From positions 21,856 to 85,855 of the forward strand of contig JAZUIU010000028.1 in the NCBI GenBank assembly GCA_045642405.1: 64,000 nt of DNA. The letters are read 5' to 3'. Every line of letters starts with the position of its first letter. The stretch's first letter is position 1. A program made the translations under genes and the position numbers. Of this stretch, positions 1-9,561 are shown piece after piece. The notes beneath the pieces were generated by a model that had not been told where the DNA came from, did no database searches, and was given only the letters and a program-made list of their open reading frames with translations. The stretch is from Oscillospiraceae bacterium (GTDB taxonomy: Bacteria > Bacillota > Clostridia > Oscillospirales > Oscillospiraceae).

Positions 1-18
1 GTTTTCTTCCTTTCTTTT

Positions 19-684
19 TCAAATCGGCACATTGTTTTGTAAGGTCAATGCAAAGAGATCGGGAATTTCGGACGACAGTCCTTCATATAAGTCCCGATGC
101 ACGGCGGTCGCAACGATCGGAAGTTGCGAAAGGTGCGACACCTCGTTTGCAAACGGGAGCGAATCAAGCACCGTTTGTTCGTCCGTTTCTCTCCCGAGAT
201 TGGAATTGTTGATCAGTCCCGTAACGGGAATTCCGCCCGCCGCCTCGATCTCCGCGATCACTTCCATCGCTTCTTGCGGTGTCCGTGTCAACGGGCGGTA
301 GGCATTGAGCACGAAAAGCATCGCGTAATCGTTTTCTTCAAGCAGTCTTTCGCGCAGTCTTCCCAATGCCAGAGCACCGCGGTCATCGCCGCCGAGGTCG
401 ATCACGGCATGGGATGTCTTATCATCGCAAAGCGTATACATTTCCGGCGGCAATGCCGGCACATCGAGATTGGTATTGACAAAATCGGATGCAATGAGCC
501 GAATGCCCTGCGTTTGCAAATATTCCCGACTGTCAGCCGAGCGGAAATACGGATTGACGATATCCAGATCCGCAAGCGCGACACGCGTATGGCGCTTTTT
601 CAAGTCAAGTGCCAGATTGACTGCAAGATTGGATTTGCCGCTCCCGTAATGACCGCACAGTATGGTTATGCGTTTATCGTCCAT
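19..684 (-). CDS. P-loop ATP-binding protein (ParA/MinD/CobQ-like), of the type found in 2-oxoacid:ferredoxin oxidoreductase (vor-like) clusters
   Basis: Walker A GHYGSGKS near the N-terminus, DLDIVNPYFRS and DLGGDDRGA motifs. An RBS-like AAAGGAAG at positions 1-18 on the minus strand implies the operon continues off the left edge. Confidence 0.75.
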   Translation of the reverse strand: MDDKRITILCGHYGSGKSNLAVNLALDLKKRHTRVALADLDIVNPYFRSADSREYLQTQGIRLIASDFVNTNLDVPALPPEMYTLCDDKTSHAVIDLGGDDRGALALGRLRERLLEENDYAMLFVLNAYRPLTRTPQEAMEVIAEIEAAGGIPVTGLINNSNLGRETDEQTVLDSLPFANEVSHLSQLPIVATAVHRDLYEGLSSEIPDLFALTLQNNVPI

Positions 685-699
685 AAAACACCTGCTATC

Positions 700-2967
700 T
701 CAAAGCTGATTGCGGATGATCTTGCCGCTGATCGTCTTGGGCAGCGAGTCACAAAATTCCACGATGCGCGGGTATTTATACGGCGCGGTATTTTTCTTGA
801 CATACTCCTGGATTTCGCGTTTGAGTTCTTCTGTCCCATCCGTTCCCTTGACCAAAACGATGCTCGCCTTGACCACTTGACCGCGCACGGGATCAGGGGC
901 TGCCGAAACGCCGCACTCCAAAACATACGGCAGTTCCATAATGACATTTTCGATCTCAAACGGCCCGATACGGTAGCCGGAGGACTTGATCACATCGTCG
1001 ATACGGCTGACATACCAATAAAAACCGTCTTCGTCTTTCCACGCAAGATCGCCCGTGTGGTAATATCCGTCGTGCCATGCCTCTTTCGTTGCCGCTTCGT
1101 TTTGATAATAACCGAGGAACAAACCGCACGGTACATTTTCGGATGTTTTTACACAGATCTCGCCGCTTTCGCCCATCTTCGCTTCCGTTCCGTCCGGAAG
1201 AAGCAATTTGATATCGTACAGCGGAGAGGCTTTGCCCATTGAGCCGACTTTTACGCGGTCTCCGATGAGATTGCCGATCGCAAGCGTCAATTCCGTCTGA
1301 CCGAAGCCCTCACAGATGTGAAGCCCCGTTGCATCCAAAAACTGTTTGTATACTTCGGGATTGAGCGCCTCCCCTGCCGTGGTGATATGCACCAGCGAGG
1401 AAAAATCGTATTTTGAAAGGTCTTCTTTCACCATCATGCGCAGCATCGTCGGCGGTGCGCAGAAAGTCGTGATCTTGTATTTGGGGAACATCGAAAGGAT
1501 CGATGCCGCATGGAAACGGTCAAAGTCGTATGTAAAGACCGCGCCTTCACAAAGCCATTGCCCGTAGAGTTTGCCCCAGAGTGCTTTACCCCAGCCCGTG
1601 TCGGAAATCGTGAAATGGATACCGTTTTCACTCACACCGTGCCAATACTTTGCCGTAATATAATGACCGAGCGCATATTTGTAAGAATGTAGTGCCATTT
1701 TCGGATAACCGGTCGTGCCGGAAGTAAAAAACAACAGCATCGGTGCATCGCCGCACGGCGTATCAGCGGTACGGTAAAAATGGACATTGAATAATTGGCT
1801 CTCTTCATCGTAATTGTGCCAACCTTCCCGGTCATGATCGAGCAAAATCTTCGTCAGATCGCCGTCATAGTCCTGCGCCGCAAGATCGACCTGATCGGCA
1901 GTTGCGTCATCGGCGCAAAGGATATAACCGACCGATGCGGTTTGGAAACGGTAGAGAAAATCATGCGCTTGGAGTTGATTGGTCGCCGGAATGGCGATCG
2001 CGCCGATCTTATGCAAACCCAAAATGGCAAACCAGAACTGATAGCGCCGTTTGAGCACGAGCATCACGCGATCTCCTGCACGCACGCCGATGGATTTGAA
2101 GTAATTTGCCGCCTGTGCAGAGGCGCGTTTGATGTCGCGGAAGGTAAAACGGCGTTCGGTCAGATCATCGGCAACATGGATCATGGCAAGTTTATTCGGC
2201 TTTGTTCTGCCGAGTTCATCCACAATGTCAAAGGCAAAATTGAACTGATCCTCGTTTTGGAAACGGATGGACTGCAAAAGTCCGTTTTCGTCTTCCTCCG
2301 TGGTGATGAATTTGGAAACTGCCAATTTTCCTTCCTGCTGTTTGTAAGGGCGAAGGAGCGTATTTTTGACAAAATGCTCTTCTTGCTTTTCACCCGGCAG
2401 CACCACCGCCAAAAAGACGCAATCCGCACCGTCCACGGCGACCATACCGTGCTGGGTGGAACTGTTATAATAGATACTGTCGCCTTCACTCAGATACTCG
2501 ATATTCTCGCCGATCTGCACTTTGAGACGGCCTTTGAGGATATAGTCAAATTCCTGACCTGAATGGCTGGTGAGCGCAATGGGCTGATCCTGCAATTCTT
2601 GCTTGAATTCATAGCGGACAAAATACGGCTCGGATATCTTTTTGAGAAACATCGGCGCAAGGTTGCTGATTTCGATACCGTTTTCCTTGACCGTCTCCTG
2701 TCCGTTCCCCTTGCGCGTAATCGAATAGGACGAAAGATGCGCCGTATGCCCTTCAAGCAAATCGGTAATACCGACGCCGAAGGCAATGGAGCATTTATGG
2801 ATAAAGGTAAAGGGAAAATCCTCTTTGCCCGATTCGTACAGTCTGTAATCCGCAAGAGAGACTTCCGTCTTCCCCGCCATTTCATCTTCGGAGAAGCCGC
2901 AGATCTCGCGCATCGTGCGGATACGCATGGCGACCGCCTGCAATCGTTCGTTTTCAAACTCAGCCAT
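700..2967 (-). CDS. Fusion protein: N-terminal XRE-HTH plus cupin, C-terminal acyl-CoA synthetase (AMP-binding)
   Basis: HTH at aa ~10-70 (RIRTMREICG...YRLYESG), cupin (HSGQEFDYILKG...YYNSSTQHGM), then adenylation motifs FTSGTTGYPK, EGFGQTE, YHTGD, RIDDVIKSSGYRIGPFEIE, PKTISGK. Start moved to ATG 2967 (GGAGG RBS). Confidence 0.9.
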   Translation of the reverse strand: MAEFENERLQAVAMRIRTMREICGFSEDEMAGKTEVSLADYRLYESGKEDFPFTFIHKCSIAFGVGITDLLEGHTAHLSSYSITRKGNGQETVKENGIEISNLAPMFLKKISEPYFVRYEFKQELQDQPIALTSHSGQEFDYILKGRLKVQIGENIEYLSEGDSIYYNSSTQHGMVAVDGADCVFLAVVLPGEKQEEHFVKNTLLRPYKQQEGKLAVSKFITTEEDENGLLQSIRFQNEDQFNFAFDIVDELGRTKPNKLAMIHVADDLTERRFTFRDIKRASAQAANYFKSIGVRAGDRVMLVLKRRYQFWFAILGLHKIGAIAIPATNQLQAHDFLYRFQTASVGYILCADDATADQVDLAAQDYDGDLTKILLDHDREGWHNYDEESQLFNVHFYRTADTPCGDAPMLLFFTSGTTGYPKMALHSYKYALGHYITAKYWHGVSENGIHFTISDTGWGKALWGKLYGQWLCEGAVFTYDFDRFHAASILSMFPKYKITTFCAPPTMLRMMVKEDLSKYDFSSLVHITTAGEALNPEVYKQFLDATGLHICEGFGQTELTLAIGNLIGDRVKVGSMGKASPLYDIKLLLPDGTEAKMGESGEICVKTSENVPCGLFLGYYQNEAATKEAWHDGYYHTGDLAWKDEDGFYWYVSRIDDVIKSSGYRIGPFEIENVIMELPYVLECGVSAAPDPVRGQVVKASIVLVKGTDGTEELKREIQEYVKKNTAPYKYPRIVEFCDSLPKTISGKIIRNQL

Positions 2968-2980
2968 AATAACCTCCAAT

Positions 2981-3023
2981 AAAACAAAAAACCGACAGAC
3001 CCCGCAAAAGGAAATCTGTCAGT
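2981..3023 (-). terminator. Intrinsic terminator in the 5' leader of the acyl-CoA synthetase operon (attenuator terminator)
   Basis: Minus strand ACTGACAGAT pairs with GTCTGTCGGT and is followed by TTTTTGTTTT; it lies 14 nt upstream of the start codon. Confidence 0.8.
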
Positions 3024-3041
3024 TATCTATAACTTCAGATT
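3013..3041 (-). promoter_or_regulatory. Putative antiterminator hairpin overlapping the terminator 5' arm
   Basis: Minus strand AATCTG-A-AGTTA[TAGA]TAACT-GA-CAGATT; starts 3 nt after the leader stop codon. Confidence 0.6.
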
Positions 3042-3044
3042 GCG

Positions 3045-3257
3045 TTAAAAAACGCGCACCCTTTGGGGGAATTGGGAGCCCTTTTCAATAATTCGAGCAA
3101 TCAAAAGGCCCATAATTCGCAAAGAGCGCAAAATAATAGCGGACACCATAACGGTATCCGCAAGAAGAGCAGTATTGCAAGAGGCACAAGCGCGCACGGA
3201 AACGCCCGTAGCACCGACTACGGCAGAGGTACGAGTATTGGCAAAAACCGTACGCAT
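3045..3257 (-). CDS. Putative attenuator leader peptide, 70 aa, Val/Ile/Leu-rich
   Basis: AGGAGG RBS (3267-3272) 9 nt before the ATG. Sequence MRTVFANTRTSAVVGATGVSVRACASCNTALLADTVMVSAIILRSLRIMGLLIARIIEKGSQFPQRVRVF has 21/70 I/L/V. Confidence 0.65.
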   Translation of the reverse strand: MRTVFANTRTSAVVGATGVSVRACASCNTALLADTVMVSAIILRSLRIMGLLIARIIEKGSQFPQRVRVF

Positions 3258-3285
3258 TTCCGATATCCTCCTGTCTTTTTTCAAG

Positions 3286-3313
3286 ATTATAGCACACCTT
3301 TCGCCATTGTCAA
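3286..3313 (-). promoter_or_regulatory. Sigma-A promoter of the leader/acyl-CoA synthetase transcript
   Basis: TTGACA (3313-3308), 16-nt spacer, extended -10 TGcTATAAT (3291-3286). Confidence 0.8.
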
Positions 3314-3428
3314 CCGTTTTCAGCCAAAAATACTTACAATTTTTATGAGAATTTGTGCGTCATCATTGTGCCATATTCACACATTTGCGGCAAAATGGGG
3401 AAATAGACAAGAAATGTATTAGTTTTTA

Positions 3429-3457
3429 TTGCAGTTGCAAAAAAGCCGTGATATAAT
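3429..3457 (+). promoter_or_regulatory. Sigma-A promoter of the met operon
   Basis: TTGCAG, 17 nt, TATAAT with TG extension; about 30 nt before the metY start. Confidence 0.6.
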
Positions 3458-3488
3458 GCTTACTAATATTTTTCGGAGGATTGCAAAG

Positions 3489-4766
3489 ATGAAAATCGAA
3501 ACCAAATGCGTCCAAGGCGGCTATACGCCGAAAAACGGGGAGCCGAGACAACTCCCCATCGTCCAAAGCACCACATTTCAATATGCGACGAGTGAGGATA
3601 TGGGTAAACTCTTTGATTTGGAAGATGACGGTTATTTTTACAGCCGTCTCGCCAATCCCACCAACGATGCAGTCGCGGCAAAAATCTGTGCGTTGGAAGG
3701 CGGCAGTATGGCAATGCTGACCTCTTCCGGTCAGGCCGCCAATTTCTATGCGGCATTCAACATTGCGCAATGCGGCGACCATATCGTCGCCTGCTCCGCC
3801 ATCTACGGCGGCACTTATAATCTCTTTGCGGTCACGATGCGCAAAATGGGTGTGGATTTCACATTTGTCTCCCCCGATTGCACCGACGAAGAACTCGCCG
3901 ATGCGTTCCGCCCGAACACCAAAGCGGTCTTCGGTGAAACGATCGCCAATCCCGCGCTCGCCGTTCTCGACATTGAGCGCTTTGCCGCTGCGGCGCACGC
4001 ACACGGTGTGCCGCTGATCGTGGATAACACCTTTGCAACACCGATCAACTGCCGTCCCTTTGAATGGGGCACGGATATCGTCACACACTCCACCACCAAA
4101 TATATGGACGGGCATGGCGCCGCGCTCGGCGGTTGCATCGTGGATTCGGGCAAATTCGATTGGATGAAATATCCCGAAAAATTCCCCGGTCTTTGCACGC
4201 CGGACGAAAGTTATCACGGCGTTGTCTACGCCGAGCGATTCGGTATTGAAGGTGCTTTTATCAATAAATGCACCGCACAGTTGATGCGTGATTTCGGCTC
4301 GGTACAGTCTCCGCAGAATGCGTTCCTCCTCAATCTCGGTTTGGAAAGCCTGCATGTGCGCGTCAGGCGTCATTGCGAAAATGCGCAGAAAATCGCGGAA
4401 TTTTTGCGGCAGGATGCGCACATTTCCTTTGTCAACTACTGCGGTCTGCCCGGTGACCGGTATTACGAGCGTGCGCAAAAGTATCTCCCCGACGGCTCTT
4501 GCGGTGTGGTCAGTTTCGGCATCAAGGGCGGCAGAAAAGCCGCAGAGACTTTTATGAAACACCTCAAAGTCGCCGCGATCGAAACGCATGTTGCCGACGC
4601 CAAAACCTGTTGTTTGCATCCGGCAAGTACGACGCACCGCCAGATGAGCGACGAAGAACTGCTTGCCGCCGGTGTATCGCCCGACCTCGTTCGTCTTTCC
4701 TGCGGCATTGAAAATGCACAGGATCTGATCGACGATATCCGTCAGGCACTTTCCGAAATCCAATAG
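3489..4766 (+). CDS. metY: O-acetylhomoserine aminocarboxypropyltransferase (sulfhydrylase)
   Basis: Cys/Met metabolism PLP family: YSRLANPT, SGQAA, DNTFATP, HSTTKYMDGHG (PLP lysine), HPASTTHRQ. GGAGG RBS before ATG 3489. Confidence 0.92.
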   Translation: MKIETKCVQGGYTPKNGEPRQLPIVQSTTFQYATSEDMGKLFDLEDDGYFYSRLANPTNDAVAAKICALEGGSMAMLTSSGQAANFYAAFNIAQCGDHIVACSAIYGGTYNLFAVTMRKMGVDFTFVSPDCTDEELADAFRPNTKAVFGETIANPALAVLDIERFAAAAHAHGVPLIVDNTFATPINCRPFEWGTDIVTHSTTKYMDGHGAALGGCIVDSGKFDWMKYPEKFPGLCTPDESYHGVVYAERFGIEGAFINKCTAQLMRDFGSVQSPQNAFLLNLGLESLHVRVRRHCENAQKIAEFLRQDAHISFVNYCGLPGDRYYERAQKYLPDGSCGVVSFGIKGGRKAAETFMKHLKVAAIETHVADAKTCCLHPASTTHRQMSDEELLAAGVSPDLVRLSCGIENAQDLIDDIRQALSEIQ

Positions 4767-4781
4767 TAAAGAGGTATTAAA

Positions 4782-5699
4782 ATGCCGATTAAAATTCCCA
4801 ACGAGCTGCCTGCTTTCAAGGTTTTGACAGACGAAAACATCTTCCTGATGAGCGAGACACGCGCCATCACGCAGGATATCCGTCCTTTGCAGATCGCCGT
4901 TTTGAATTTGATGCCCAACAAGATTGAAACCGAAACCCAGCTTTTGCGTCTGCTCGGCAACACACCTTTGCAGGTGGAAGTGGAACTGCTTCACACGAAA
5001 ACGCACCGCTCTAAAAATGTATCGGAAGAGCATCTTCTCTCTTTTTACAAGACTTTCGACGATGTGAAAGACCGCTTTTTTGACGGCATGGTCATCACCG
5101 GCGCTCCCGTGGAAAAACTGCCCTTTGAAGAGGTGGAGTATTGGGATGAACTGTGCGAGATCATGGAGTGGAGCAAAACGCATGTTCACAGCACCGTCCA
5201 TATCTGTTGGGGAGCGCAAGCCGGTCTTTATTATCACCACGGCATCCAAAAGCACGCTCTTGCAGAGAAACTATTCGGCGTTTTTGCCCACACGGTCGAT
5301 CATCGCTCCTCGATCCTCTTTCGCGGATTTGATGATGTTTTTATGGTGCCGCATTCGCGTTACACAAGCGTGGATATCGAGGATATCAAAAAGTGCAAAG
5401 AACTGAAAATCCTTTCCACATCGAAAGAGACCGGCGTTTATGCCGTTTCCACCGATGAGGGCAAGCAGATCTATCTGATGGGGCATGTGGAATACGATGC
5501 CGCTTCTTTGGGAAAGGAATACCGCCGCGACAAGGAAGCAGGGCTTCCCATCGCCGTGCCGAAAAACTATTTTCTCGATGACGATCCGAGCAAAGAGCCC
5601 ATGGTCACCTGGCGCTCCTGCGCACACATGGTGTTTGCGAATTGGCTCAACTATTTCGTCTATCAGACCACGCCCTACGATATTACCGACATCCGTTAG
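4782..5699 (+). CDS. metA: Homoserine O-acetyl/succinyltransferase (MetA family)
   Basis: [47 protein letters not shown]. Confidence 0.95.
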
Positions 5700-5710
5700 G
5701 AGATTGCGTT

Positions 5711-6592
5711 ATGAAGATCATCGAGCAATTAAACGAGAAAAAATTCACCGTTTCCTTCGAAGTATTTCCGCCCAAAACCGACGCAAATTTCGACTCGGTC
5801 AAATCCGCCACCGAGCAGATTGCCGCACTCAAACCCGGTTTTGTCAGCGTAACTTACGGTGCCGGCGGCGGCACGAGTCAATATACGCTCGCCATCGCCG
5901 AAAACATCAATGCGCACTACGGTGTGCCGTCTTTGGCACACCTCACCTGCGTTTCCTCCTCCAAAAAGACGGTCAAGGAGCGCATCCGGGCTTTGAAAGC
6001 CTCGGGCATTGAAAATGTCATGGCACTGCGCGGCGATATTCCCGAGGAAATGCAGGGACAGGATCGCAGTACATGGGACTATCAATACGCCTGTCAACTC
6101 GTGGAGGAACTGAAACAAGCCGGCGGTTTTTGCATCGGCGGTGCGTGCTATCCCGAGATCCACCCCGAAAGTGCCGATCAGCGCGAAGATATCCGCCATC
6201 TCAAAGAAAAAGTCGAAGCCGGCTGTGATTTTCTGACCACGCAAATGTTTTTCGACAACAATCTTTTTTATAATTTCCTTTTCAAAATCCGCGAAGCCGG
6301 CATCACCGTACCCGTTTTGCCCGGCATTATGCCCATCACCAATGCAAAGCAGGTGGCGCGTGCTGTCAGTCTCTCCGGCTCTTTTGTTCCGCAGCGTTTC
6401 AAAAGTCTGGTCGACCGTTTCGGCTCCGATCCCGAGGCAATGAAGCAAGCCGGCATCGCCTATGCGACCGATCAGATCATCGACCTTTTCGCAAACGGCA
6501 TCTACCATGTGCATATCTACACGATGAACAAGCCCGATGTCGCCGAAAATATCCTCAAAAATCTTTCGTCCATTCTCGGTAAATCGCTATGA
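5711..6592 (+). CDS. metF: 5,10-methylenetetrahydrofolate reductase
   Basis: SFEVFPPK, SVTYGAGGGT, AHLTCV, ALRGD, YPEIHPE, TQMFFDN, HIYTMNK. Confidence 0.95.
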   Translation: MKIIEQLNEKKFTVSFEVFPPKTDANFDSVKSATEQIAALKPGFVSVTYGAGGGTSQYTLAIAENINAHYGVPSLAHLTCVSSSKKTVKERIRALKASGIENVMALRGDIPEEMQGQDRSTWDYQYACQLVEELKQAGGFCIGGACYPEIHPESADQREDIRHLKEKVEAGCDFLTTQMFFDNNLFYNFLFKIREAGITVPVLPGIMPITNAKQVARAVSLSGSFVPQRFKSLVDRFGSDPEAMKQAGIAYATDQIIDLFANGIYHVHIYTMNKPDVAENILKNLSSILGKSL

Positions 6593-7179
6593 TCTCGCCG
6601 CAATACCGAACGGTCTCTTTGCCCGATTTTGACACAGCCGAGATCCTGCGTTATGCCAAAACCAAAACGGCAGAAGGTCTCCCCCTCGCCGAGTGTCTTG
6701 ACGATCTGCGCAGTTTGGAGGGAAAAGCGGCATTTGCCGAGTTTCCGATCGAACATACTGCCGAAGGACTTGATCTCGGATTTGCCAAAACGGCATCGAA
6801 GGATCTGCAAAAGGCTTTGGGCGAGTCGGAAAAAATTCTGCTTTTTGCCGCAACGGTCGGCATTCTGCCCGATCGTCTGACGGCGAAATACTCGCGTCTA
6901 TCCCCCACACGCGCCGTTTTGATCCAGGCGATCGCAACCGAGCGGATCGAAACCCTTTGCGATGCCTTTTGCCGCGAGCGCAAAGCGTACTATGACGCGC
7001 AGGGGTTTGTCTTAAAACCCCGATTCAGTCCCGGATACGGTGATCTGCCGCTTGCGATGCAAAGCGATATCCTCTCCGCCTTGGATTGTCATCGTCTTTT
7101 GGGCATTTCCCTCACAAAAAGCCTTTTGATGATGCCCTCCAAATCGGTCACTGCCATTGCGGGAATTTGCCGCAAATAA
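6589..7179 (+). CDS. Stand-alone cobalamin-dependent methionine synthase reactivation (SAM-binding) domain
   Basis: RFSPGYGDLPL and MPSKSVTAIAG motifs; overlaps the metF stop and lies directly before metH. Confidence 0.85.
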   Translation: MISPQYRTVSLPDFDTAEILRYAKTKTAEGLPLAECLDDLRSLEGKAAFAEFPIEHTAEGLDLGFAKTASKDLQKALGESEKILLFAATVGILPDRLTAKYSRLSPTRAVLIQAIATERIETLCDAFCRERKAYYDAQGFVLKPRFSPGYGDLPLAMQSDILSALDCHRLLGISLTKSLLMMPSKSVTAIAGICRK

Positions 7180-7191
7180 AGGAGAAGTCCC

Positions 7192-9561
7192 ATGACACTC
7201 AAAGAATTCATCCAAAACCGCATTTTGGTGCTTGACGGCGGTACCGGCACGCTCTTGCAAGCCGCCGGTCTTCCGGCAGGGATGCCGCCCGAAAAATGGA
7301 ATACGGAAAATCCCGATGCCGTCATTGCTTTGCATCAAGCCTATTTTGATGCCGGTAGCAATGCCGTCGTCACCAATACTTTTGGTGTAAATGCACTCAA
7401 ATACAGCGTGAAAGAAATCGAAAAGACGGTTTCCGCGGCAGTTTCTCATGCGAAAAAAGCCGCCGCGCTTTCTTGCGGCGAGCAGGAAAAATTCGTCCTT
7501 TTGGATTTAGGCCCGACCGGAAGACTGCTTGCGCCGTTGGGTGATCTGGATTTTGAAGATGCCGTTGCGGCGTATGTCCCTGTCATTTCCGCCGGTGTCA
7601 AAGCAGGTGCGAACGGCATTTTCATCGAAACGATGAACGATTGCTACGAGACCAAAGCCGCGCTTTTGGCGGCAAAAGAACACTCCGATCTCCCCGTTAT
7701 CGTCTCCAATGCCTATTCTCAGGACGGCCGCTTACTCAGCGGCTCGTCGCCTGCGGTGATGGTGGCGATGCTTGAAGGAATGGGAGCCGATGTGATCGGC
7801 GTAAACTGTTCTTTCGGTCCCGACGGTCTGATGCCCGTCGTCAAAGAATATCTGTCGCTTGCTTCCGTCCCTGTTTTGATGAAGCCCAATGCCGGCATTC
7901 CGAAAGTTACGGACGGCAAAACTGTTTTTGACATCACGCCCGATCAATTTGCCGATGAAATGCGCACGGCGGTGAAAATGGGTGTGCGCTGCGTCGGCGG
8001 CTGCTGCGGTACGACACCCGAACATATTGAAAAAACCGTCTCGGCGATCCGCGACCTCTCCCCCGTCGCCGTGACAAACAAGCAAAAAACCGTGGTCTGT
8101 TCTTCCACGAAAGCAGTCGATTTTGACCGTTATCCCGTCCTCATCGGTGAGCGGATCAATCCTACGGGCAAAAAGCGGCTCAAACTCGCGCTTGCCGAGC
8201 GTGATCTCACTTACATTTTGAATGAAGGCATCACCCAGCAGGAAAAGGGCGCGCACATTTTGGATGTGAATGTCGGCATCCCGGACATCAGCGAAGCGGA
8301 GTTACTGCCGGACATCATCGGCGAATTGCAAAGCGTCTGCGATGTTCCGCTGCAAATCGACACTTCCGACTATACGGCGATGGAAAAAGCCATGCGCCGC
8401 TACATCGGAAAGCCTTTGGTCAACTCGGTCAACGGCAAAAAAGAGAGTATGAACGCCGTCTTTCCTCTGATCAAGAAGTACGGCGGCACCGTTATCGCGC
8501 TCACGCTCGATGAAAACGGCATCCCCGACACAGCGCAGGGGCGTTTGGAGATCGCAAAGCGCATTTTAGCGCGTGCCGAACAGTTCGGCATTGCAAAAAA
8601 CGACATCGTTTTCGACCCTCTTGCACTCACCGTGAGCGCCGACAAAAATGCCGCAATTGTGACCTTGCAAGCCATTTCCCTCATCACCCAAACGCTGGGA
8701 TGCCGCACCTCTTTGGGCGTTTCCAATGTATCGTTCGGTCTTCCCAACCGCGGTGAGATCAATGCCGCATTCTTTACCGCCGCTCTTTATGCCGGTCTCA
8801 CCGCCGCCATAATCAATCCCAACTCCGGTGAAATGATGTTGGCTTATCATACATTCCGCGTTCTCAACGCGCTGGATGAAAACTGTCTTGACTTCATCGC
8901 CTATGCCGAAGGCACCGAAAAAAAAGCGGAAGCGCCGGTTGAAAATACCGCTATGACGCTTGCGCAGGCAATCGTAAAAGGGCTCAAAACAAAAGCCGGT
9001 GAACTCGCCAAATCCATGCTGCAAACGCTCGATGCCATGGAGATCATCAACGCGCATATCATTCCCGCGCTTGATCAGGTCGGCATCGGTTTTGAGCATA
9101 AAACCGTCTTTCTCCCCCAACTGCTGATGAGTGCGGAAGCCGCTTCCTGCGCCTTTGAGCAGATCAAAGCATCCAACACCATTAAACGCGAAAAAAACGG
9201 TATAAAGATCGTGCTTGCGACCGTGCAGGGCGACATTCACGATATCGGGAAAAATATTGTGCGAATGCTTCTTGCCAACTACGGCTTTGAGGTCATTGAT
9301 CTCGGCAAGGATATCAAGCCGGAAATGATCGTCTCTGCCGCCATAGAACAACACGCCGCCATCGTCGGTCTCTCGGCTTTGATGACCACGACTGTTCCTT
9401 ATATGGAAAAGACCATCCGTCTTTTGCGTGCAAAAGCACCCGATGTCAAAATCGTGGTCGGCGGTGCGGTTTTGACGAAGGAATACGCCGAAAAGATCGG
9501 TGCAGACCATTACGCCGTGGATGCAATGGAAACCGTGCGCTATGCCGAGCAATTTCAATAA
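7192..9561 (+). CDS. metH: B12-dependent methionine synthase (Hcy-binding, pterin-binding and cobalamin-binding domains; no C-terminal activation domain)
   Basis: LDGGTGT, GVNCS, GGCCGTTPEHI, IGERINPTGKK, VQGDIHDIGKNIV (B12 DxHxxG motif). Confidence 0.95.
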   Translation: MTLKEFIQNRILVLDGGTGTLLQAAGLPAGMPPEKWNTENPDAVIALHQAYFDAGSNAVVTNTFGVNALKYSVKEIEKTVSAAVSHAKKAAALSCGEQEKFVLLDLGPTGRLLAPLGDLDFEDAVAAYVPVISAGVKAGANGIFIETMNDCYETKAALLAAKEHSDLPVIVSNAYSQDGRLLSGSSPAVMVAMLEGMGADVIGVNCSFGPDGLMPVVKEYLSLASVPVLMKPNAGIPKVTDGKTVFDITPDQFADEMRTAVKMGVRCVGGCCGTTPEHIEKTVSAIRDLSPVAVTNKQKTVVCSSTKAVDFDRYPVLIGERINPTGKKRLKLALAERDLTYILNEGITQQEKGAHILDVNVGIPDISEAELLPDIIGELQSVCDVPLQIDTSDYTAMEKAMRRYIGKPLVNSVNGKKESMNAVFPLIKKYGGTVIALTLDENGIPDTAQGRLEIAKRILARAEQFGIAKNDIVFDPLALTVSADKNAAIVTLQAISLITQTLGCRTSLGVSNVSFGLPNRGEINAAFFTAALYAGLTAAIINPNSGEMMLAYHTFRVLNALDENCLDFIAYAEGTEKKAEAPVENTAMTLAQAIVKGLKTKAGELAKSMLQTLDAMEIINAHIIPALDQVGIGFEHKTVFLPQLLMSAEAASCAFEQIKASNTIKREKNGIKIVLATVQGDIHDIGKNIVRMLLANYGFEVIDLGKDIKPEMIVSAAIEQHAAIVGLSALMTTTVPYMEKTIRLLRAKAPDVKIVVGGAVLTKEYAEKIGADHYAVDAMETVRYAEQFQ

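What the first reader, a model, noticed from the sequence alone, without database searches (positions are those of the whole stretch)
19..2967. Regulator-enzyme fusion (XRE-cupin + acyl-CoA synthetase) and P-loop ATPase: probable branched-chain fatty acid salvage operon
Seen: one 755-aa polypeptide joins a DNA-binding HTH, a ligand-binding cupin and a full adenylate-forming enzyme. A ParA-like ATPase follows, and an RBS at the window edge shows another gene downstream. Established knowledge: rumen anaerobes can make Val/Leu/Ile by activating isobutyrate, isovalerate or 2-methylbutyrate and reductively carboxylating the acyl-CoA with ferredoxin-dependent 2-oxoacid oxidoreductase. Inference: the ILV leader points to branched-chain acids as the substrate and predicts vor/kor subunits just left of the window. 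The fusion could act as a self-regulating trigger enzyme.
Basis: partly seen in the sequence, partly recalled or inferred. Interest (0 to 1): 0.55.

Follow-up and report, generated by a model that had tools for sequence, protein, structure and literature searches.

The report
Branched-acid ligase with fused sensor module
The window's left edge starts a nine-gene operon that most likely rebuilds isoleucine, and probably leucine, from branched fermentation acids; its first enzyme carries a fused regulator-like sensor module, and this unstudied gene set occurs in over half of the Clostridia genomes sampled.

Summary
Observation confirmed. Window 700-2967(-) encodes one 755-aa protein: an XRE-type helix-turn-helix, a cupin and a complete AMP-forming acyl-CoA synthetase. 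Window 19-684(-) encodes a 221-aa P-loop NTPase.

- Just left of the window lie a ferredoxin, VorB-type 2-oxoacid:ferredoxin oxidoreductase alpha/beta/gamma, a LeuA-like gene, a second ligase fusion and a Leu/Val-type amino-acid dehydrogenase.
- ilvB, ilvC, ilvD, leuB, leuC and ilvE were not found in this 98.5%-complete genome.

The fusion is real. It was found in 167 of 301 sampled Clostridia genomes, and most matches are fused.

In relatives, the orthologue follows an isoleucine T-box and a tandem paralogue follows a valine T-box. The closest solved enzyme, MacsMa (3ETC), prefers 2-methylbutyrate.

New here:
- The N-terminal module separates cleanly into Ile and Val clades, whereas the catalytic domains pair by genome.
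- One ligase residue (Gly460 versus Ala) tracks the T-box codon.
- The NTPase sits directly before ferredoxin-Vor in 29 of 29 loci.

Whether the module binds DNA ("trigger enzyme") is unproven. Its acidic, variable recognition helix argues for a metabolite sensor instead.

The scan has noted this gene set before on other genomes. I found no paper describing it.

The parts
3286..3313 (-). Sigma-70-type promoter of the operon (TTGACA, 16 nt, TG-TATAAT)
   Evidence: 12 of 12 consensus matches with an extended -10. Equivalent strong promoters precede the T-boxes of the orthologues.
3045..3254 (-). Leader ORF (70 aa from the ATG, Ile-rich in its last third) with an internal hairpin at 3161-3139. 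Context only; it is the subject of a separate finding.
   Evidence: ORF list and sequence; terminator-like hairpin; fold z-score -5.4; no Rfam family, so no T-box here.
2990..3024 (-). Intrinsic-terminator-like hairpin plus U-run, directly before the RBS of the fusion gene
   Evidence: 14-pair stem followed by TTTTGTTTTA.
700..2967 (-). Fusion gene, 755 aa plus stop: XRE-HTH, cupin and a MACS-type AMP-forming acyl-CoA synthetase. Ile-type; predicted 2-methylbutyrate-CoA ligase.
2749..2940 (-). XRE-type five-helix HTH domain (about residues 10-73)
   Evidence: Pfam HTH_19 at 18.9 bits, below cut-off here, but HTH_3/HTH_19 above cut-off in related fused clusters. AF2 predicts helices 2-72 with pLDDT 81-98. 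Recognition helix acidic and variable.
2398..2700 (-). Cupin barrel (about residues 90-190) with invariant His135, Glu139 and His173
   Evidence: Pfam Cupin_2 at 40.1 bits; invariant columns; Foldseek matches 1Y9Q and HppE-type cupins; 8 of the 12 Ile/Val type-specific positions lie in residues 92-192.
703..2232 (-). Acyl-CoA synthetase part (residues 246-755), including Trp442 (equivalent to Trp259 of MacsMa) and Gly460 (Ala in the Val-type)
   Evidence: 595 bits to PDB 3ETC; MbcS model 404 bits; the residue at 460 follows the T-box specifier.
19..684 (-). 221-aa SIMIBI-class P-loop NTPase, conserved first gene of the ferredoxin-Vor unit
5..14 (-). RBS of the ferredoxin (delta-type) gene, which starts just left of the window

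Best explanation
The finding covers the first two genes of a tightly packed nine-gene operon. Its order is promoter, leader, fusion ligase, NTPase, ferredoxin, Vor alpha/beta/gamma, LeuA-like, TIM-barrel-ligase fusion, amino-acid dehydrogenase. The operon most likely assimilates branched short-chain fermentation acids into branched-chain amino acids.

Inferred steps:
1. The 755-aa enzyme activates 2-methylbutyrate to 2-methylbutyryl-CoA, at the cost of ATP to AMP.
2. The ferredoxin-dependent VorB-type oxidoreductase reductively carboxylates the acyl-CoA to the 2-oxoacid.
3. The Leu/Val-type dehydrogenase aminates it to isoleucine. The second ligase probably serves leucine in the same way.

The fused XRE-cupin module is the part that carries the Ile-versus-Val identity of this enzyme family. 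I read it as a metal-assisted small-molecule sensor, for the end-product amino acid or its 2-oxoacid, that controls the attached ligase. DNA binding is possible but less likely.

The P-loop NTPase is a dedicated accessory factor of this oxidoreductase. Its role, perhaps assembly or maturation, is unknown.

Shown: gene content, synteny, T-box specifiers in relatives, lack of detectable ilv/leu genes, and the domain trees. Inferred: substrates, direction of flux, sensor output and NTPase role.
For: Gene content:
- Downstream genes were identified by Pfam and NCBIfam. VorB alpha scores 537 bits against a cut-off of 399.
- The genes overlap by 4 nt or are separated by at most about 20 nt.

Synteny:
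- The core ligase(s)-NTPase-Fd-Vor order is conserved in same-family genomes and across the class.

Regulation in relatives:
- T-boxes precede the fused genes. They carry AUC (Ile) before 14 orthologues and both split forms, and GUA/GUC (Val) before 9 paralogues; CUC (Leu) precedes the LeuA-like gene.
- This was replicated in about 72 further Ile loci and 18 further Val loci.
- T-boxes switch genes on when the tRNA is uncharged (established knowledge), which points to the biosynthetic direction.

Substrate:
- The closest solved enzyme is MacsMa (3ETC, 595 bits), which prefers 2-methylbutyrate (PMC10455477).
- The key Trp (Trp259 in MacsMa) is conserved as W442.

Canonical pathway:
- No ilvC, ilvD, AHAS large subunit, leuB, aconitase-fold protein or Aminotran_4 protein was found; the controls rang in 13-14 of 14 genomes.

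Sensor reading of the N-terminal module:
- In the N-terminal tree, the Ile clade (98/97) and the Val clade (97/92) match the T-box labels. In the ligase-domain tree, same-genome paralogues are sisters and the labels are no more clustered than shuffles.
- 11 of the 12 fixed type-specific positions lie in residues 54-192.
- The structural neighbour 1Y9Q holds an amino acid in its cupin pocket.
- The recognition helix has a net charge of -1 to -6 in all 29 proteins examined.

NTPase:
- It was found in 216 of 301 class genomes, and in 29 of 29 loci it is followed by Fd-VorB.
Against: - No biochemical data exist for any member. Substrate and direction are inferred.
- The ligase scores 404 bits on the MbcS model, below its 850-bit equivalog cut-off.
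- This genome has only the Ile-type fused ligase, so a source of valine is unexplained.
- The LeuA-like gene has no LeuBCD partners here, so part of the operon logic is not understood.
- Characterised XRE-cupin proteins are DNA-binding local repressors (PMC7901475), and split forms with a separate XRE-cupin gene exist. A DNA-binding role therefore cannot be excluded.
- The type-specific residues on the first cupin strands could serve paralogue-specific dimerisation rather than ligand choice.
- The ligase-domain tree is the quick version; the careful search did not finish.
Confidence: 0.7

Rival explanations
1. True trigger enzyme. The XRE helix-turn-helix binds an operator at the operon's promoter or leader (about window 3258-3430). 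The fused protein then represses its own operon until the cupin or the ligase site binds a ligand.
For: - All characterised XRE-cupin proteins are local repressors of neighbouring metabolic genes (PMC7901475).
- The HTH fold is retained at high confidence, and it passes Pfam cut-offs in related fused clusters.
- Split forms place a separate XRE-cupin gene directly before the ligase gene.
- An acyl-CoA ligase (FadD1) has been reported to bind DNA (PMC12754631).
Against: - The helix 2-turn-helix 3 segment is net acidic in all 29 proteins, and the recognition helix is among the least conserved parts.
- No shared palindrome was seen around the promoters of 22 loci; this was by eye only.
- Transcription is already gated by a T-box or a leader.
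- HppE-type enzymes show that the same two-domain fold need not bind DNA.
Confidence: 0.25
2. The ligase mainly supplies branched acyl-CoA primers for branched-chain membrane fatty acids, as MbcS does in Staphylococcus aureus, rather than supplying amino-acid synthesis.
For: MbcS is the best NCBIfam model. Its role in fatty-acid priming is published (PMC10026030).
Against: - The score is below the equivalog cut-off.
- The gene is co-transcribed with ferredoxin, Vor and an amino-acid dehydrogenase.
- Orthologues are controlled by Ile or Val tRNA-sensing T-boxes.
- No canonical branched-chain amino acid pathway was found.
- The two uses are not exclusive.
Confidence: 0.1
3. The operon is catabolic: branched-chain amino acids are deaminated and oxidatively decarboxylated by Vor, and the ligase only scavenges or equilibrates the resulting acids.
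For: Vor-type enzymes and amino-acid dehydrogenases are reversible, and many Clostridia ferment branched-chain amino acids (established knowledge).
Against: - T-boxes induce genes when the cognate tRNA is uncharged, that is, under shortage.
- An AMP-forming ligase spends ATP and does not conserve energy.
- No phosphotransacylase or kinase gene is in the operon.
- The genome lacks detectable ilv and leu genes, so it needs a supply route.
Confidence: 0.05
4. The cupin is itself catalytic: a mononuclear 2-His-1-Glu metalloenzyme like HppE that modifies the acid or the acyl-CoA.
For: His135, Glu139 and His173 are invariant. Foldseek matches HppE, Psf4 and HEPD enzymes with the same alpha-domain-plus-cupin layout. 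The residue spacing in HppE is from my memory.
Against: - No extra chemical step is needed between the acid and the amino acid.
- An epimerase role would make sense only for 2-methylbutyrate, yet the Val-type keeps the same triad.
- The best structural match is a regulator, 1Y9Q, which the sequence alignment shows to keep at least the Glu and the second His.
Confidence: 0.07

Closest known systems
MacsMa, medium-chain acyl-CoA synthetase of Methanosarcina acetivorans (PDB 3ETC)
   Same: The ligase part aligns over residues 228-753 at 595 bits. All core motifs and the pocket Trp (W442 here) are conserved. MacsMa prefers 2-methylbutyrate (PMC10455477).
   Different: MacsMa has no N-terminal HTH-cupin module. 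It is archaeal, and I know of no T-box or Vor operon context for it.
MbcS, methylbutyryl-CoA synthetase of Staphylococcus aureus (NCBIfam NF047394)
   Same: It is the best-scoring curated model (404 bits) and covers the whole ligase part. It activates branched short-chain acids (PMC10026030).
   Different: The score is below the 850-bit equivalog cut-off. MbcS is unfused and feeds fatty-acid synthesis.
XRE-cupin local repressors (ErfA, PsdR, PauR; V. cholerae structure 1Y9Q)
   Same: The two-domain layout is the same. 1Y9Q is the top Foldseek hit (E 7e-14) and holds an amino acid in its cupin pocket (PMC7901475). Split relatives are encoded next to the ligase gene.
   Different: Here the module is fused to a 510-aa enzyme. 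Its recognition helix is acidic and variable, and DNA binding is untested.
Anabolic 2-oxoisovalerate:ferredoxin oxidoreductase (VorABC type) and the reductive carboxylation of branched-chain acids described in rumen bacteria
   Same: A four-subunit enzyme (delta, alpha, beta, gamma). The alpha subunit passes the VorB model.
   Different: The genes behind that physiology in Clostridia, the fused ligases, their tRNA gating and the NTPase partner are not described in any paper I could find.
SIMIBI-class NTPases (FlhF/SRP GTPases, Get3, ApbC/Cfd1, HypB, CooC, MinD, NifH)
   Same: Same fold: VIA-align Z 11-15 over about 175-190 residues and Foldseek TM 0.5-0.58. It has a Walker A and a DxGGD motif.
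   Different: It joins no subfamily in particular. It has no signature lysine, no CxxC and no conserved Cys. It is always encoded before the ferredoxin-Vor genes.

Membership tests
AMP-forming acyl-CoA synthetase (ANL superfamily), MACS/ACSM branch | AMP-binding N-domain plus a small C-domain | tested here: met
   Pfam PF00501 at 197 bits and PF13193 at 75 bits.
AMP-forming acyl-CoA synthetase (ANL superfamily), MACS/ACSM branch | Core motifs: the P-loop-like TSGTTGxPK, GQTE, YxTGD, the hinge RxDD, and the catalytic Lys in SGK | tested here: met
   All can be read in the translation, and they align with 3ETC.
AMP-forming acyl-CoA synthetase (ANL superfamily), MACS/ACSM branch | Alternate pocket Trp of MacsMa (Trp259) | tested here: met
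   W442 aligns with the Trp of the AKYW motif of 3ETC. The role of Trp259 is described in PMC10455477.
MbcS equivalog (NF047394) | Score at or above the curated cut-off of 850 bits | tested here: not met
   403.8 bits.
XRE-cupin transcription regulators | XRE-type HTH domain | tested here: inconclusive
   HTH_19 scores 18.9 bits, below the 30.2 cut-off, in this protein. It is above cut-off in related fused clusters. A five-helix fold is predicted.
XRE-cupin transcription regulators | C-terminal cupin sensor domain | tested here: met
   Cupin_2 at 40.1 bits against a cut-off of 27.2. 1Y9Q is the top Foldseek hit.
XRE-cupin transcription regulators | Sequence-specific DNA binding and repression of neighbouring genes | not testable with these tools
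   Indirect evidence only: acidic, variable recognition helix and no shared palindrome seen.
Trigger enzymes (enzymes that also regulate gene expression) | The same polypeptide shows both catalysis and direct control of gene expression | not testable with these tools
   Both domains are present. No functional data exist.
VorB-type 2-oxoacid:ferredoxin oxidoreductase (downstream genes) | Alpha subunit above the curated cut-off, plus beta (TPP), gamma and delta (2x[4Fe-4S]) subunits | tested here: met
   Alpha scores 537 bits against 399. Beta, gamma and delta are recognised by Pfam and NCBIfam, but below the equivalog cut-offs.
ParA/MinD deviant-Walker-A ATPases | Signature lysine in KGGxGK[ST] | tested here: not met
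   The Walker A reads CGHYGSGKS/T in all 33 aligned sequences, with no signature Lys.
Mrp/ApbC/NBP35 Fe-S carriers and NifH-like reductases | Conserved cluster-binding cysteines (CxxC or a Cys pair) | tested here: not met
   No conserved Cys in 14 orthologues. None among the invariant or nearly invariant columns of A1.
T-box leader (RF00230) before the fusion gene | Rfam match upstream of the gene | tested here: not met
   No Rfam match in window 1-8000, even at E up to 1. A T-box is present before nearly all orthologues.

The most novel reading that the evidence does not exclude
The fused XRE-cupin module is an allosteric end-product (or 2-oxoacid) sensor that switches the ligase. The Ile/Val identity of the tandem paralogues is stored only in this sensor, in the T-box and in one pocket residue (Gly460/Ala), while the catalytic domains are kept alike by gene conversion. 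In addition, the Cys-free SIMIBI NTPase is an obligatory, nucleotide-dependent partner that this widespread oxidoreductase needs in order to be assembled or to work in the carboxylating direction.
Probability: 0.3. Interest if true: 0.8.

Novelty: new variant of a known kind. Interest (0 to 1): 0.62.

Why it matters
Cellulolytic rumen bacteria have long been known to need isobutyrate, 2-methylbutyrate and isovalerate, and 'isoacids' are fed to dairy cattle for that reason (my knowledge). I found no paper that describes the genes responsible in Clostridia.

This cluster offers concrete, testable candidates:
- a substrate-specific ligase for each amino acid;
- one shared carboxylating oxidoreductase with a mystery NTPase;
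- an aminating enzyme.

It occurs in over half of the Clostridia genomes sampled, many of them from gut and rumen. In this genome it appears to be the only route to isoleucine and leucine other than uptake.

The fusion is also a natural experiment in how a regulator module becomes part of an enzyme. Paralogue identity sits in the sensor rather than in the catalytic domain.

Tried and rejected
I examined neighbourhoods with the genome search, the fetch from genomes and tblastn instead.
- Rfam found nothing in window 1-8000, so this copy has no T-box.
- I looked by eye for a shared palindrome or operator around the promoters of 22 loci. I saw only the strong -35/-10 boxes. No formal motif search was run.
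- I tested whether the NTPase could be a NifH-like, ATP-driven electron donor or an ApbC-like cluster carrier, and rejected it because there is no conserved cysteine.
- I considered a 2-methylacyl epimerase role for the cupin and rejected it, because the Val-type (achiral substrate) keeps the same invariant triad.
- Sequence searches of the PDB with the N-terminal module and with the NTPase gave only marginal hits. Fold searches were needed.
- Literature searches for the fusion, for T-box plus ligase plus oxidoreductase, and for the acetate-pocket residues of acetyl-CoA synthetase found no description.
- The claim that residue 460 lines the acyl pocket therefore rests on my memory of Ingram-Smith et al. 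2006 and on the numerical offset to Salmonella Acs.
- The careful tree of the ligase domain did not finish, so the quick tree is reported.
Full report
WHAT IS THERE. On the minus strand, window 700-2967 is one open frame of 755 aa. Its ATG at 2967 lies 7 nt after a GGAGG. Pfam finds an XRE-type helix-turn-helix (HTH_19, residues 15-73, 18.9 bits, below its cut-off), a cupin (133-189, 40.1 bits) and a complete AMP-forming ligase (AMP-binding 254-621 at 197 bits; AMP-binding_C 671-749 at 75 bits). All ligase core motifs, including the C-terminal catalytic lysine, can be read in the translation. Fifteen bases after its stop begins a 221-aa P-loop NTPase (19-684) with the Walker A GHYGSGKS. The RBS at the window edge belongs to a 68-aa two-cluster ferredoxin gene whose ATG lies just outside the window.

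THE REST OF THE OPERON. The window is G000:C28:21856-85855, so the contig continues to the left. Directly downstream on the same strand lie:
- the ferredoxin;
- a 2-oxoacid:ferredoxin oxidoreductase alpha subunit that passes NCBI's VorB model (537 bits against a cut-off of 399);
- the beta (TPP) and gamma subunits;
- a diverged LeuA-like synthase;
- a second ligase fused to a xylose-isomerase-like TIM barrel (826 aa);
- a Glu/Leu/Phe/Val-family amino-acid dehydrogenase.
An integrase gene follows. Gene ends overlap by 4 nt or lie within about 20 nt, as expected for one transcription unit. Upstream of the fusion gene are a perfect sigma-70-type promoter (3313-3286), a 70-aa leader ORF and two terminator-like hairpins. 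No Rfam family matches there.

It predicted vor/kor genes just left of the window, and they are there. It asked whether ilvBCD are missing. In this 98.5%-complete genome I found no match to ilvC, ilvD, the acetolactate synthase large subunit, leuB, any aconitase-fold protein (LeuC) or any class-IV aminotransferase (IlvE). The same searches rang in 13-14 of 14 control genomes. Absence from an assembly is not proof, but six independent misses point the same way.

THE FUSION IS REAL AND COMMON. More than 100 public proteins of about 755 aa are at least 71% identical. At 50% clustering the fused form makes up about three full-length clusters. In two of them the HTH passes Pfam's cut-offs. Within the window's own family, 33 of 100 genera have the N-terminal module. 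Across the class it was found in 167 of 301 sampled genomes. Most of the listed matches lie in frames of 750-820 aa, and about two dozen lie in frames of 190-260 aa. In two such split cases the separate XRE-cupin gene sits directly before a separate ligase gene. Named relatives are gut and rumen MAGs labelled Acutalibacteraceae, Ruminococcus, Oscillospiraceae or Christensenella.

WHAT THE ENZYME DOES. The ligase part aligns over its whole length with PDB 3ETC (595 bits). That protein is MacsMa, whose preferred substrate is 2-methylbutyrate. Its pocket Trp259 (PMC10455477) is conserved here as W442. The best NCBIfam model is MbcS, the staphylococcal methylbutyryl-CoA synthetase, but at 404 bits it is below the equivalog cut-off.

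Regulation in relatives gives independent evidence. Nearly every fused gene is preceded by a T-box. Reading the specifier codon gave AUC (Ile) for 14 orthologues of the window's gene and for both split forms. It gave GUA/GUC (Val) for 9 copies of a second, often tandem, paralogue, and CUC (Leu) before the LeuA-like gene. The pattern was replicated in 80 further loci that were all of the Ile type (about 72 with AUC). It was replicated again in 20 loci from other families, chosen before their type was known (18 Val, 2 Ile). T-boxes turn genes on when the cognate tRNA is uncharged, so these ligases are wanted when isoleucine or valine is short.

Together with the ferredoxin, the Vor enzyme, the dehydrogenase and the missing ilv genes, this supports the assimilatory route: acid, then acyl-CoA, then 2-oxoacid by reductive carboxylation, then amino acid. 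This genome has only the Ile-type fused ligase plus the TIM-barrel ligase. In relatives the TIM-barrel ligase follows the Leu-T-box-controlled LeuA-like gene.

WHAT THE FUSED MODULE IS. The AF2 model of residues 1-245 shows a five-helix domain, a cupin barrel and a disordered linker at 195-213 (pLDDT 83.5). Its best structural match is 1Y9Q, an XRE-cupin regulator (E 7e-14). Next come HppE, Psf4 and HEPD, enzymes with the same layout that bind iron. 1Y9Q carries D-methionine in its cupin pocket, and characterised XRE-cupin proteins are local repressors (PMC7901475). His135, Glu139 and His173 are invariant in all 29 fused and split sequences.

Two results bear on function.

First, the module carries the paralogue identity.
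- In a tree of residues 9-200, the Ile-T-box genes and the window's protein form one clade (98/97), and the Val-T-box genes form another (97/92).
- In the quick tree of the ligase domain, same-genome paralogues are sisters (98, 95, 94), and the labels are no more clustered than shuffled ones.
- Within a genome, the ligase N-domain (residues 246-660) of the two paralogues is 71.6% identical, against 68.5% between orthologues.
- Of the 12 positions fixed differently in the two types, 11 lie in residues 54-192.
- The twelfth is residue 460, Gly in the Ile-type and Ala in the Val-type, in the motif DTGW[G/A]K. It follows the T-box codon in all 20 loci and in all but one of the Ile-type loci.
- By its offset to Salmonella Acs and my memory of the acetate-pocket residues, position 460 lines the acyl pocket. 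The smaller residue would then go with the larger acid. This assignment is an inference.

Second, the DNA-reading part looks unsuited to its usual job. The helix 2-turn-helix 3 segment has a net charge of -1 to -6 in all 29 proteins, and the recognition helix varies between orthologues. I saw no shared palindrome at the promoters.

I therefore favour a small-molecule sensor that acts on the attached enzyme, and I keep the trigger-enzyme reading as the main rival at about 0.25. The type-specific residues on the first cupin strands might instead prevent mixed dimers between the paralogues.

THE NTPase. It has no close solved relative by sequence. The AF2 model (pLDDT 90) matches the SIMIBI class broadly: FlhF and SRP GTPases, Get3, ApbC/Cfd1, HypB, MinD, NifH and CooC, with Z 11-15 and TM 0.5-0.58. 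It lacks the ParA/MinD signature lysine and has no conserved cysteine. So it is neither a classic partition ATPase nor an Fe-S carrier or NifH-like reductase.

It was found in 216 of 301 class genomes. In 29 of 29 fetched loci it is immediately followed by the ferredoxin and VorB genes, as it also is in the same-family loci that carry it. Public sources call it 'hypothetical protein', 'P-loop NTPase' or 'MinD-like ATPase'. The link to this oxidoreductase is firm. The role (assembly, maturation or control) is a guess.

COMPARISON AND NOVELTY. The parts belong to known families and the pathway is known from physiology. I found nothing in the literature on four points: the fusion, the tRNA-gated paralogue pairs, the storage of identity in the sensor module, and the NTPase partner. 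Other agents of this scan have noted the same gene set on many other genomes. Their readings (Ile and Val T-boxes, MacsMa as the closest enzyme, a module that looks more like a sensor than a DNA binder, a Cys-poor NTPase) agree with what I found here. The T-box lead from e1-5272312 came before my own T-box work. The notes were read only afterwards.

Specific to this genome:
- a leader-peptide region stands in place of the T-box;
- a dehydrogenase replaces the aminotransferase seen elsewhere;
- none of the six canonical branched-chain amino acid pathway genes searched for was found;
- the LeuA-like gene is an orphan.

I rate it a new variant of a known kind, with interest 0.62.

Noticed in passing
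L003:5888-7294 (-), left of the window (C28:17887-19293): The LeuA-like synthase (HMGL-like plus LeuA_dimer, only 278 bits on LeuA models and 94 bits to PDB 3RMJ) sits in the operon, yet no leuB or aconitase-fold leuC was found in the genome. In relatives this gene follows a Leu (CUC) T-box. Its reaction here is unexplained.
   Followed up: partly
L003:3411-5891 (-), left of the window: A second fusion of 826 aa joins a xylose-isomerase-like TIM barrel (AP_endonuc_2) to a ligase of another branch (PRK12583-like, 657 bits). It recurs next to the NTPase-Fd-Vor unit in many Clostridia. The TIM barrel's nearest solved relatives are uncharacterised proteins. It may be the isovalerate (Leu) ligase; the role of the barrel is unknown.
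   Followed up: partly
L003:2357-3409 (-), left of the window: The last operon gene is a Glu/Leu/Phe/Val-family dehydrogenase. Its best model is tryptophan dehydrogenase ScyB (389 bits, below cut-off). It would replace the missing branched-chain aminotransferase. Earlier scan notes on other genomes describe clusters with an aminotransferase instead.
   Followed up: no
Representative proteins P0126, P0138, P0128, P0186: Other MacsMa-like ligases carry C-terminal GNAT acetyltransferase, glyoxalase/VOC or PAS-histidine-kinase-receiver domains. Fusing regulatory or accessory domains to this ligase branch appears to be a recurrent theme.
   Followed up: no
window 3429-6592 (+): Divergent from the operon are methionine genes: an O-acetylhomoserine sulfhydrylase-like protein, a MetA-like homoserine acyltransferase and a methylenetetrahydrofolate-reductase-like protein. 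I judged these from the translations only. MetA also neighbours the NTPase-Vor unit in two other genomes (L050, L060).
   Followed up: no
L003:1342-2181 (-), left of the window: A tyrosine recombinase (XerC/integrase-like) gene lies directly after the last operon gene.
   Followed up: no
L023:9654-9757, L029:9554-9682, L030:5578-5793: A NiCo riboswitch, an FMN riboswitch and tandem c-di-GMP-I riboswitches lie near the cluster in related genomes.
   Followed up: no
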